From an uncultured bacterium (GTDB lineage Bacteria; Joyebacterota; Joyebacteria; Joyebacterales; Joyebacteraceae), in NCBI GenBank assembly GCA_964562405.1, contig CAZLTC010000006.1:1372-65371 (forward strand): a stretch of DNA of 64,000 nt. The letters run 5' to 3'. The translations under genes and the position numbers were made by a program. Positions 61,993 through 62,056 of this stretch are shown piece after piece; the first letter of the stretch is position 1; the number at the start of each line of letters is the position of its first letter. The notes beneath the pieces were generated by a model, which did no database searches, was not told the DNA's origin, and saw only the letters and a list, made by a program, of their open reading frames with translations.

Positions 61993-62056
61993 TTGACAGG
62001 TGGGACGAGCGGAGGATAGGCTCCCACGTCGTGGGTCGGAGTGGGAAGAAGTGGGA
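61993..62056 (+). promoter_or_regulatory. Pmra-like promoter (TTGACA-N17/18-aTAGGCT) with four GTGGGN boxes, three of them spaced exactly 10 bp: candidate MraZ operator
   Basis: GTGGGA 62000-62005; GTGGGT 62031; GTGGGA 62041; GTGGGA 62051; mraZ ATG at 62107. Confidence 0.45.

What the first reader, a model, noticed from the sequence alone, without database searches (positions are those of the whole stretch)
61993..62056. GTGGGN boxes at exact 10-bp spacing upstream of mraZ (MraZ operator signature)
Between a TTGACA -35 (61993) and the mraZ ATG (62107) there are four GTGGG[AT] boxes. Three of them (62031, 62041, 62051) are phased exactly one helical turn apart. Direct TGGGN repeats with this spacing are the described binding site of MraZ at the dcw promoter in E. 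coli and Mollicutes. Their presence here suggests conserved autoregulation of the division/cell-wall cluster in this distant lineage.
Basis: partly seen in the sequence, partly recalled or inferred. Interest (0 to 1): 0.5.

Follow-up and report, generated by a model that had tools for sequence, protein, structure and literature searches.

The report
MraZ operator boxes at dcw promoter
The phased GTGGG repeats in front of mraZ are real, far beyond chance and conserved in relatives, and they match the known binding site through which MraZ represses its own cell-division operon, so this is an ordinary instance of a known switch in an uncultured lineage (Candidatus Eisenbacteria).

Summary
TTGACA lies at 61993. 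GTGGG[AT] boxes lie at 62000, 62031, 62041 and 62051, and the mraZ ATG at 62107. The exact 10-bp triple occurs once in 64 kb and in 1 of 2000 shuffles. The ORF is MraZ (TIGR00242 equivalog) with its DNA-contact residues intact, followed by a STAS-domain gene and rsmH. Nine distinct orthologous upstream regions (MraZ 53-90% identical, Eisenbacteria-type) all keep three boxes at exact 10-bp spacing. Box identity is 0.98-1.0, whereas the 5' leader is 0.59. The invariant TTGACA and an invariant TAnnnT 17-18 nt downstream define the promoter, so boxes 1-3 fall on the inferred start site. E. coli Pmra has the same box, phase and distance from the -35 (37 versus 38 bp). An RNA-structure reading is not supported. 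This is a new member of a known kind, of low interest. Two modest extras: the operator seems to extend across the whole core promoter, and a lineage-specific STAS gene sits between mraZ and rsmH.

The parts
61967..61991 (+). GC-rich hairpin (AAGGCGCC-TGAG-GGCGCCTT) plus T-run. An intrinsic-terminator-like element ending 1 nt before the -35. It would insulate the dcw promoter from upstream read-through.
   Evidence: Terminator scan. The stem is kept by different sequences in relatives (GGCGCC, GGGGCC, GGGCCC, GGGGGC; alignment A1). The T-run is invariant.
61993..61998 (+). -35 hexamer TTGACA of the mraZ/dcw promoter
   Evidence: Invariant in 10 of 10 sequences. The same hexamer stands at the equivalent place in E. 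coli Pmra.
62000..62005 (+). Box 0, GTGGGA, inside the promoter spacer directly after the -35, 31 bp (about 3 helical turns) upstream of box 1
   Evidence: Kept in 9 of 10 relatives, identity 0.95. TGG boxes at the same offset from TTGACA occur in unrelated delta-type MAG loci L005 and L006. Binding is inferred.
62017..62022 (+). Inferred -10 hexamer TAGGCT (TAnnnT), 18 nt after the -35
   Evidence: T62017, A62018 and T62022 are invariant in 10 of 10 sequences, while the inner bases vary. The spacer is 17-18 nt in all relatives. The promoter scan tool did not call it, because it matches only 3 of 6 positions of TATAAT. The transcription start is inferred, not mapped.
62022..62027 (-). Inverted copy of the box (TCCCAC on the + strand, GTGGGA on the - strand) abutting the -10. 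With box 0 it forms GTGGGA-N16-TCCCAC bracketing the spacer and the -10.
   Evidence: Kept in 8 of 10 relatives, lost in L023 and degenerate in L028. Its function is not established. It could also be a GC-rich discriminator.
62031..62036 (+). Box 1, GTGGGT, at the inferred transcription start region
   Evidence: GTGGG is invariant in 10 of 10 sequences and the sixth base is variable.
62041..62046 (+). Box 2, GTGGGA, 10 bp after box 1
   Evidence: TGGGA is invariant. The first G is A in L021 only.
62051..62056 (+). Box 3, GTGGGA, 10 bp after box 2
   Evidence: GTGGGA is invariant in 10 of 10 sequences.
62094..62097 (+). Shine-Dalgarno GGAG, 9 nt before the ATG
   Evidence: GGAGCA is conserved in most relatives, although the leader around it is otherwise variable.
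62107..62604 (+). mraZ (165 aa), the presumed protein that binds the boxes
   Evidence: PF02381 at 6e-32. TIGR00242 equivalog above its cutoff. D13, K15, R17, D84 and R88 are invariant.
62611..62970 (+). STAS-domain (anti-sigma-factor-antagonist-like) gene inserted between mraZ and rsmH, co-oriented and presumably co-transcribed
   Evidence: PF01740 and PF13466. TIGR00377 is below its cutoff. Present in all Eisenbacteria-type relatives and absent from the loci of other phyla.
63047..63976 (+). rsmH/mraW, 16S rRNA m4C1402 methyltransferase, the next dcw gene
   Evidence: PF01795 at 6.6e-101. In relatives ftsL and a PBP (ftsI-type) gene follow.

Best explanation
This is the MraZ operator of the division/cell-wall (dcw) promoter of a Candidatus Eisenbacteria-type bacterium. 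The promoter is TTGACA (61993), an 18-nt spacer, then TAGGCT (62017). Transcription is inferred to start at about 62028-62031. Three direct GTGGG boxes (62031, 62041, 62051) sit one helical turn apart on one face of the DNA, on and just downstream of that start. Each box would be read in the major groove by the cradle-like beta-sheet motif of one MraZ subunit (K15, R17, R88). Neighbouring subunits of an opened MraZ ring would bind cooperatively, as in the M. genitalium cryo-EM complex. Occupancy would block open-complex formation or promoter escape, giving negative autoregulation of mraZ-STAS-rsmH-ftsL-pbp. Box 0 in the spacer, and possibly the inverted copy next to the -10, would extend the occupied region over the whole core promoter. 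What is shown: the boxes, their statistics, their conservation, the identity of MraZ and its contact residues, and the match to the E. coli sequence. What is inferred: the transcription start, binding itself, the sign of regulation, and any role for box 0 and the inverted copy.
For: The coordinates and phasing are exact. The triple occurs in 1 of 2000 shuffles, with an expectation of 1.25e-4 per window. The gene is MraZ by Pfam and by the NCBIfam equivalog. All nine distinct orthologous regions keep three boxes at 10-bp spacing; box columns have identity 0.98-1.0, against 0.59 for the leader and 0.70 for the promoter spacer. TGGG-N6-TGGG-N6-TGGG occurs exactly once in each of the 15 related loci and once in the E. 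coli locus, always on the mraZ strand just upstream of mraZ. E. coli Pmra carries a/tGTGGG three times at 10 bp, starting 37 bp from the first T of TTGACA, against 38 bp here. The same 36-38 bp offset recurs in loci from other phyla. The DNA-contact residues are invariant and correspond to those shown essential by cryo-EM, EMSA and reporter assays (PMC12957436). Repression through the repeats has been shown in B. subtilis (bioRxiv 10.1101/2022.02.09.479790), in M. genitalium (PMC8475190, PMC12957436), and in E. coli (Eraso 2014, as cited in PMC8475190).
Against: There is no experimental evidence for this organism. The transcription start is only inferred, and the -10 matches TATAAT at only 3 of 6 positions, so the scan tool did not call it. 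All nine relatives belong to one clade, so part of the conservation could be shared ancestry, although the variable leader argues against that. M. gallisepticum MraZ was reported to act as an activator when overexpressed (PMC12957436, introduction), so the sign of regulation is not guaranteed. The inverted copy has no described precedent as an MraZ site.
Confidence: 0.85

Rival explanations
1. The conserved G-rich repeats are promoter-intrinsic, or are bound by a different protein. They could be an initial-transcribed or discriminator sequence that tunes RNA polymerase, or the operator of another regulator. MraZ would play no part.
For: The boxes overlap the inferred start site, and the CCCAC lies in the discriminator position, where sequence affects promoter kinetics. 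No binding data exist for this lineage.
Against: The sequence, the period and the distance from the -35 are those of the E. coli MraZ site. The motif occurs only upstream of mraZ in every locus examined. The MraZ contact residues are intact. Helical-turn phasing of a direct repeat is characteristic of a protein array, not of an RNA polymerase contact.
Confidence: 0.07
2. The repeats act at the RNA level in the 5' leader of mraZ. They could form a structured leader, or be GGA-type binding sites for a CsrA-like translational regulator.
For: If transcription starts at about 62028-62031, boxes 1-3 are transcribed. Boxes 2 and 3 contain GGA.
Against: The leader folds no better than shuffled sequences (z = -0.32; 74 of 200 shuffles fold at least as well). 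The consensus fold of 10 orthologues is -0.99 kcal/mol with no compensatory pair. Rfam gave no hit in the region. The invariant core is GTGGG, not GGA: the sixth base of box 1 is T, A, C or G. Box 0 lies upstream of the start site.
Confidence: 0.04
3. It is a chance cluster, a low-complexity G-run, or a G-quadruplex-forming tract with no specific binding partner.
For: The window is 65% G+C. Three GGG runs are separated by 7-nt loops.
Against: The triple occurs in 1 of 2000 shuffles, and GTGGGW is under-represented elsewhere in the window. The repeats are conserved in nine orthologous regions while flanking bases vary. There are only three closely spaced G-runs, and the fourth is 27 nt away, so this is not a canonical quadruplex motif.
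Confidence: 0.02
4. The boxes are coding sequence of an N-terminally extended MraZ, from the GTG at 62041 (187-aa ORF).
For: An open frame runs from 62041 into mraZ.
Against: All 15 homologous loci align from residue 1 (MRRFLG) at an ATG preceded by GGAG. The stretch 62057-62106 is the least conserved segment and carries indels that are not multiples of three. The Pfam MraZ domain starts at residue 4 of the short form.
Confidence: 0.01

Closest known systems
E. coli MraZ operator at Pmra (three direct TGGGN repeats with 5-nt spacers; Eraso et al. 2014 J Bacteriol 196:2053, cited from PMC8475190 and from my own knowledge)
   Same: The same GTGGG core. Three copies at exactly 10 bp. A preceding A in two of three copies. 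The same TTGACA -35. The first box lies 37 bp (E. coli) or 38 bp (here) from the first T of the -35. The site is directly upstream of mraZ as first gene of the dcw cluster.
   Different: The E. coli spacer carries no box next to the -35 and no inverted copy next to the -10. The leader is shorter (box 3 to ATG is 24 bp, against 56 bp here). rsmH follows mraZ directly, without a STAS gene.
Mycoplasma genitalium / Mollicutes MraZ boxes (AAAGTG[T/G] four times; cryo-EM complex, PMC12957436; Fisunov 2016, cited in PMC8475190)
   Same: Direct repeats with a 10-bp period. One MraZ subunit binds per box. The transcription start lies inside or next to box 1. An A precedes the GTG core. The contact residues Lys, Arg and Arg are conserved.
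   Different: The core there is GTGT/GTGG rather than GTGGG. There are four contiguous boxes, against three contiguous boxes plus one 31 bp upstream plus one inverted here. The genome context is AT-rich.
Bacillus subtilis MraZ binding repeats (GTGG[A/T]G three times with 4-nt spacers; bioRxiv 10.1101/2022.02.09.479790)
   Same: A triple direct GTGG repeat with a 10-bp period. It is unique in the genome and located at the mra promoter. It is required for MraZ-mediated repression, which depends on both DXXXR arginines.
   Different: The fifth and sixth bases differ (GTGGWG against GTGGGA). Judging from the promoter-swap construct described there, the repeats overlap the -35/-10 region rather than lying downstream of the -10.

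Membership tests
MraZ protein family (division/cell wall cluster transcriptional repressor) | Two tandem SpoVT/AbrB-like MraZ domains (PF02381 twice) and a match to the curated equivalog model | tested here: met
   PF02381 at 6.2e-32 with 2 stretches. TIGR00242 equivalog at 118.5 bits against a cutoff of 98.35.
MraZ protein family (division/cell wall cluster transcriptional repressor) | Two DXXXR motifs plus the Lys that contacts the box (M. genitalium Asp11, Lys13, Arg15, Asp82, Arg86) | tested here: met
   D13, K15, R17, D84 and R88 are invariant in the alignment with E. coli MraZ and six other homologues. The residue roles are taken from PMC12957436.
MraZ protein family (division/cell wall cluster transcriptional repressor) | First gene of the dcw cluster, followed by rsmH/mraW | tested here: met
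   The order is mraZ, STAS, rsmH in the window. ftsL and a PBP gene follow in relatives. The deviation is a 119-aa STAS gene inserted between mraZ and rsmH.
MraZ operator (MraZ boxes / MBRs) | At least three direct repeats with a GTG(G/T) / TGGGN core | tested here: met
   GTGGGT, GTGGGA and GTGGGA at 62031, 62041 and 62051.
MraZ operator (MraZ boxes / MBRs) | 10-bp period (six nucleotides between the GTGG cores) | tested here: met
   Exactly 10 bp in the window and in all nine distinct relatives.
MraZ operator (MraZ boxes / MBRs) | Located in the promoter region immediately upstream of mraZ, and essentially unique there | tested here: met
   It lies between the inferred -10 and the ATG. It is the only triple and the only double in the 64 kb. 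It occurs once per related locus. Whole-genome uniqueness could not be tested.
MraZ operator (MraZ boxes / MBRs) | Conserved in orthologous upstream regions | tested here: met
   Box identity is 0.98-1.0, against 0.59 for the leader, across 10 sequences with MraZ 53-90% identical.
MraZ operator (MraZ boxes / MBRs) | Bound by MraZ, with box-dependent repression of the dcw promoter | not testable with these tools
   This needs EMSA or footprinting and a reporter assay. It has been shown only for E. coli, B. subtilis and Mycoplasma (PMC12957436; bioRxiv 10.1101/2022.02.09.479790; PMC8475190).

The most novel reading that the evidence does not exclude
In this lineage the MraZ operator may not be the classical three-box site. 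It may be a phased array covering the whole core promoter. Taking offsets from the first T of the -35: box 0 at offset 7, a degenerate nGG slot at 17, the -10 in the third slot, then boxes at 38, 48 and 58, plus an inverted copy clamping the -10. The same slot geometry (TGG at offsets 7, 17 and 38) appears independently in delta-type MAG loci. That would suggest an ancestral six-slot operator matched to an opened MraZ oligomer. In addition, MraZ is co-transcribed with a lineage-specific STAS-domain protein, which could couple dcw repression to a partner-switching signal.
Probability: 0.2. Interest if true: 0.4.

Novelty: new member of a known kind. Interest (0 to 1): 0.15.

Why it matters
It extends a well-characterised autoregulatory switch, MraZ bound to phased GTGG boxes at the dcw promoter, to an uncultured candidate phylum. 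It also shows that box sequence, helical phasing and even distance from the -35 are held almost to the base pair between Eisenbacteria and E. coli. This is useful for annotation: it fixes the dcw promoter, the start codon of mraZ and an operator. It also supports the view that MraZ-DNA recognition is universal. It does not open a new question. The only items that might repay an experiment are the extra sites over the core promoter and the STAS gene lodged between mraZ and rsmH.

Tried and rejected
1. RNA element in the leader. The single-sequence fold gave z = -0.32. The consensus fold of 10 orthologues gave -0.99 kcal/mol with no compensatory pair. Rejected.

2. Rfam scan of 61700-62250. The only hit was sub-threshold: RAGATH-23 at 61718-61808, 24.6 bits against a gathering score of 92.6. 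It lies on the terminator hairpin of the upstream gene and is taken as chance.

3. The sigma-70 scan tool found no promoter, because TAGGCT matches TATAAT at only 3 of 6 positions. The promoter was instead inferred from the invariant columns of the alignment.

4. N-terminally extended MraZ ORF from GTG 62041. Rejected because the segment is variable, carries indels that break the frame, and all homologues start at MRRFLG.

5. G-quadruplex. Only three closely spaced G-runs, so not pursued.

6. The original E. coli paper (Eraso 2014; PMID 24659771, PMC4010979) is not held in the library. The E. coli comparison therefore rests on the MG1655 sequence itself and on secondary citations.

7. The PDB sequence search with the STAS protein found nothing at E <= 0.01.

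8. Single-protein scans of the genome and metagenome collections gave only one close relative (L001) plus distant phyla. The intermediate relatives came from the protein search and the contig look-ups.

Full report
**1. Observation**

The sequence reads as follows:

- TTGACA, 61993-61998
- G
- GTGGGA, 62000-62005
- cgagcggagga
- TAGGCT, 62017-62022
- CCCAC, to 62027
- gtc
- GTGGGT, 62031
- cgga
- GTGGGA, 62041
- agaa
- GTGGGA, 62051
- a 50-nt leader containing GGAG at 62094
- ATG, 62107

GTGGG-N5-GTGGG-N5-GTGGG occurs once in the window on either strand. From the observed GTGGG frequency, 1.25e-4 such triples are expected per window. Only 1 of 2000 dinucleotide-preserving shuffles contained one, and 4 of 2000 reached five GTGGG/CCCAC copies within 60 bp. 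GTGGGW is otherwise under-represented (53 observed against 71.6 expected). There is no other GTGGG-N5-GTGGG pair in the 64 kb.

**2. Context**

- ORF 62107-62604 is MraZ. Pfam PF02381 scores 6e-32 over two stretches. The NCBIfam equivalog TIGR00242 scores 118.5 bits against a cutoff of 98.35.
- A 119-aa STAS-domain ORF follows at 62611-62970, then rsmH/mraW at 63047-63976.
- In relatives, ftsL and a PBP gene come next, so this is the head of the dcw cluster.
- Upstream lies a secreted DUF7901/GEVED/FlgD_ig protein, ending at 61740. Two terminator-like hairpins follow it. The second (61967-61986, plus a T-run) ends 1 nt before the -35.
- The closest named homologue (85% identity) is labelled Candidatus Eisenbacteria by NCBI.

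**3. Conservation**

The scans and look-ups gave 15 loci. These represent nine distinct orthologous upstream regions, with MraZ 53-90% identical to the window. Every one keeps three boxes at exactly 10-bp spacing upstream of an ATG that opens MRRFLG. TGGG-N6-TGGG-N6-TGGG occurs exactly once per locus, always at that place.

Mean column identity in the 10-sequence alignment:

| Segment | Identity |
|---|---|
| TTGACA | 1.00 |
| Box 1 | 1.00 |
| Box 2 | 0.98 |
| Box 3 | 1.00 |
| Box 0 | 0.95 |
| Inverted copy | 0.93 |
| Promoter spacer | 0.70 |
| Leader, 62057-62093 | 0.59 (with indels) |

The repeat unit is better described as a 10-mer, A-GTGGG-A-n-G-n. The A before each box and a G three bases after it are also invariant. 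T62017, A62018 and T62022 are invariant 17-18 nt after the -35. That is the TAnnnT signature of a -10 hexamer, and it puts the start site at about 62028-62031, on box 1. This start is an inference, not a mapped site.

**4. Comparison with characterised systems**

E. coli MG1655 reads TTGACA-N31-aGTGGGaaat-tGTGGGgcaa-aGTGGGaata-N14-ATG. The core, the period and the -35 are the same. The first box lies 37 bp from the first T of the -35, against 38 bp here.

[quoted passage not shown] It also reports that:

- M. genitalium has four such boxes;
- the transcription start lies inside box 1;
- each box is read by Lys13, Arg15 and Arg86 of one subunit of an opened MraZ ring;
- mutating boxes or these residues abolishes binding and repression.

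The B. subtilis study (bioRxiv 10.1101/2022.02.09.479790) shows that the triple GTGG[A/T]G repeat is unique to Pmra and required for repression. PMC8475190 summarises the E. coli repressor work and the Mollicutes AAAGTG[T/G] site.

In the window protein, the equivalent residues D13, K15, R17, D84 and R88 are invariant in an alignment that includes E. coli MraZ.

**5. Mechanism**

The most likely mechanism (confidence 0.85) is cooperative binding of MraZ subunits to boxes 1-3 on one face of the helix, at the transcription start. This would block initiation or promoter escape and so give negative autoregulation of the operon.

- Shown: the motif, its statistics, its conservation, the identity of MraZ and its contact residues, and the match to E. 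coli.
- Inferred: the start site, binding itself, and the sign of regulation. One Mycoplasma study reported activation.

**6. Rivals**

- An RNA-level role for the leader is not supported. The fold z-score is -0.32, the consensus fold shows no covariation, and Rfam gave no hit. The invariant core is GTGGG rather than GGA.
- An N-terminally extended ORF from GTG 62041 is rejected, because the intervening segment is the least conserved and carries indels that break the frame.
- Chance is rejected by the tests in section 1.
- A different DNA-binding protein cannot be formally excluded without biochemistry. It is unlikely, given the near identity to the E. coli site.

**7. What goes slightly beyond the textbook site**

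(a) Box 0 sits in the promoter spacer, 31 bp (about three helical turns) upstream of box 1. It is kept in 9 of 10 sequences. An inverted copy abuts the -10 and is kept in 8 of 10.

Measured from the first T of the -35, the window has boxes at offsets 7, 38, 48 and 58, with a conserved GG at about 18. Two delta-type MAG loci (L005, L006; MraZ 33-34% identical) have TGG boxes at offsets 7, 17 and 38. L014 has them at 17 and 38. L004, L011 and L023 have the first downstream box at 36.

This hints at a phased array of up to six slots over the whole core promoter, with the -10 in the third slot. That would suit an extended MraZ oligomer. It is an inference from a few loci and was not tested statistically.

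(b) The STAS gene between mraZ and rsmH is present in all Eisenbacteria-type relatives (59-82% identical). It is absent from the other-phyla loci where both genes are visible, and from E. coli; there rsmH follows mraZ within about 15-170 bp. No paper in the library links mraZ with a STAS protein, or mentions mraZ in Eisenbacteria.

**8. Verdict**

This is a new member of a known kind and is of low interest to a specialist. The feature is what one would predict upstream of any mraZ.

Noticed in passing
window 62611-62970 (+); also L001 1804-2163, L017 3508-3867, L018 3469-3828 and others: A 119-aa single-domain STAS (anti-sigma-factor-antagonist-like) gene is lodged between mraZ and rsmH, a pair that is normally adjacent. 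It is present in all Eisenbacteria-type relatives (59-82% identical). It is absent from the loci of other phyla and from E. coli. The held literature does not link mraZ with a STAS protein.
   Followed up: partly
window 62022-62027 (-) with 62000-62005 (+): GTGGGA-N16-TCCCAC is an inverted pair of the MraZ box that brackets the promoter spacer and the -10. It is kept in 8 of 10 relatives, lost together with box 0 in the most distant one (L023), and degenerate in L028. There is no described precedent for an inverted MraZ box. It could instead be a GC-rich discriminator.
   Followed up: partly
window 61993-62056; L005, L006, L014, L004, L011, L023, L031: The distance from the first T of the -35 to the first downstream box is 36-38 bp in Eisenbacteria, in E. 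coli and in several unrelated MAG lineages. Extra TGG boxes occur in the promoter spacer at offsets 7 and/or 17 in the delta-type MAGs. This suggests a deeply conserved phased array over the whole core promoter.
   Followed up: partly
window 61967-61991 (+): A terminator-like hairpin with a T-run ends 1 nt before the -35 of the dcw promoter. The stem is maintained by different GC sequences in relatives, which looks compensatory, and the T-run is invariant. It probably acts as an insulator, or the T-tract may act like an UP element.
   Followed up: partly
window 61961-61970 (+): GTGGACAAGG (GTGGAYAAGG in 6 of 10 relatives) lies just 5' of the hairpin, exactly 70 bp upstream of box 1 and so in helical phase with boxes 1-3. 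It may be a distal GTGG box, or simply part of the terminator stem.
   Followed up: no
window 54274-59058 (+) and 59539-61740 (+): Two large secreted proteins carry FlgD_ig / Por_Secre_tail-type C-terminal sorting domains. The second (DUF7901 twice plus GEVED) is syntenic with mraZ in relatives L017, L018 and L021.
   Followed up: no
window 61718-61808 (+): A sub-threshold Rfam hit to RAGATH-23 (24.6 bits against a gathering score of 92.6; E = 0.015) overlaps the first terminator hairpin after the upstream gene. It is judged to be chance.
   Followed up: no
window 62560-62604 (+): MraZ here ends in a Gly/Arg/Asp-rich tail (EDGGDQGSGRRSGGRG). The tail varies in length and sequence among relatives, whose proteins range from 151 to 198 aa. 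In M. genitalium the C-terminus mediates docking between subunits.
   Followed up: no
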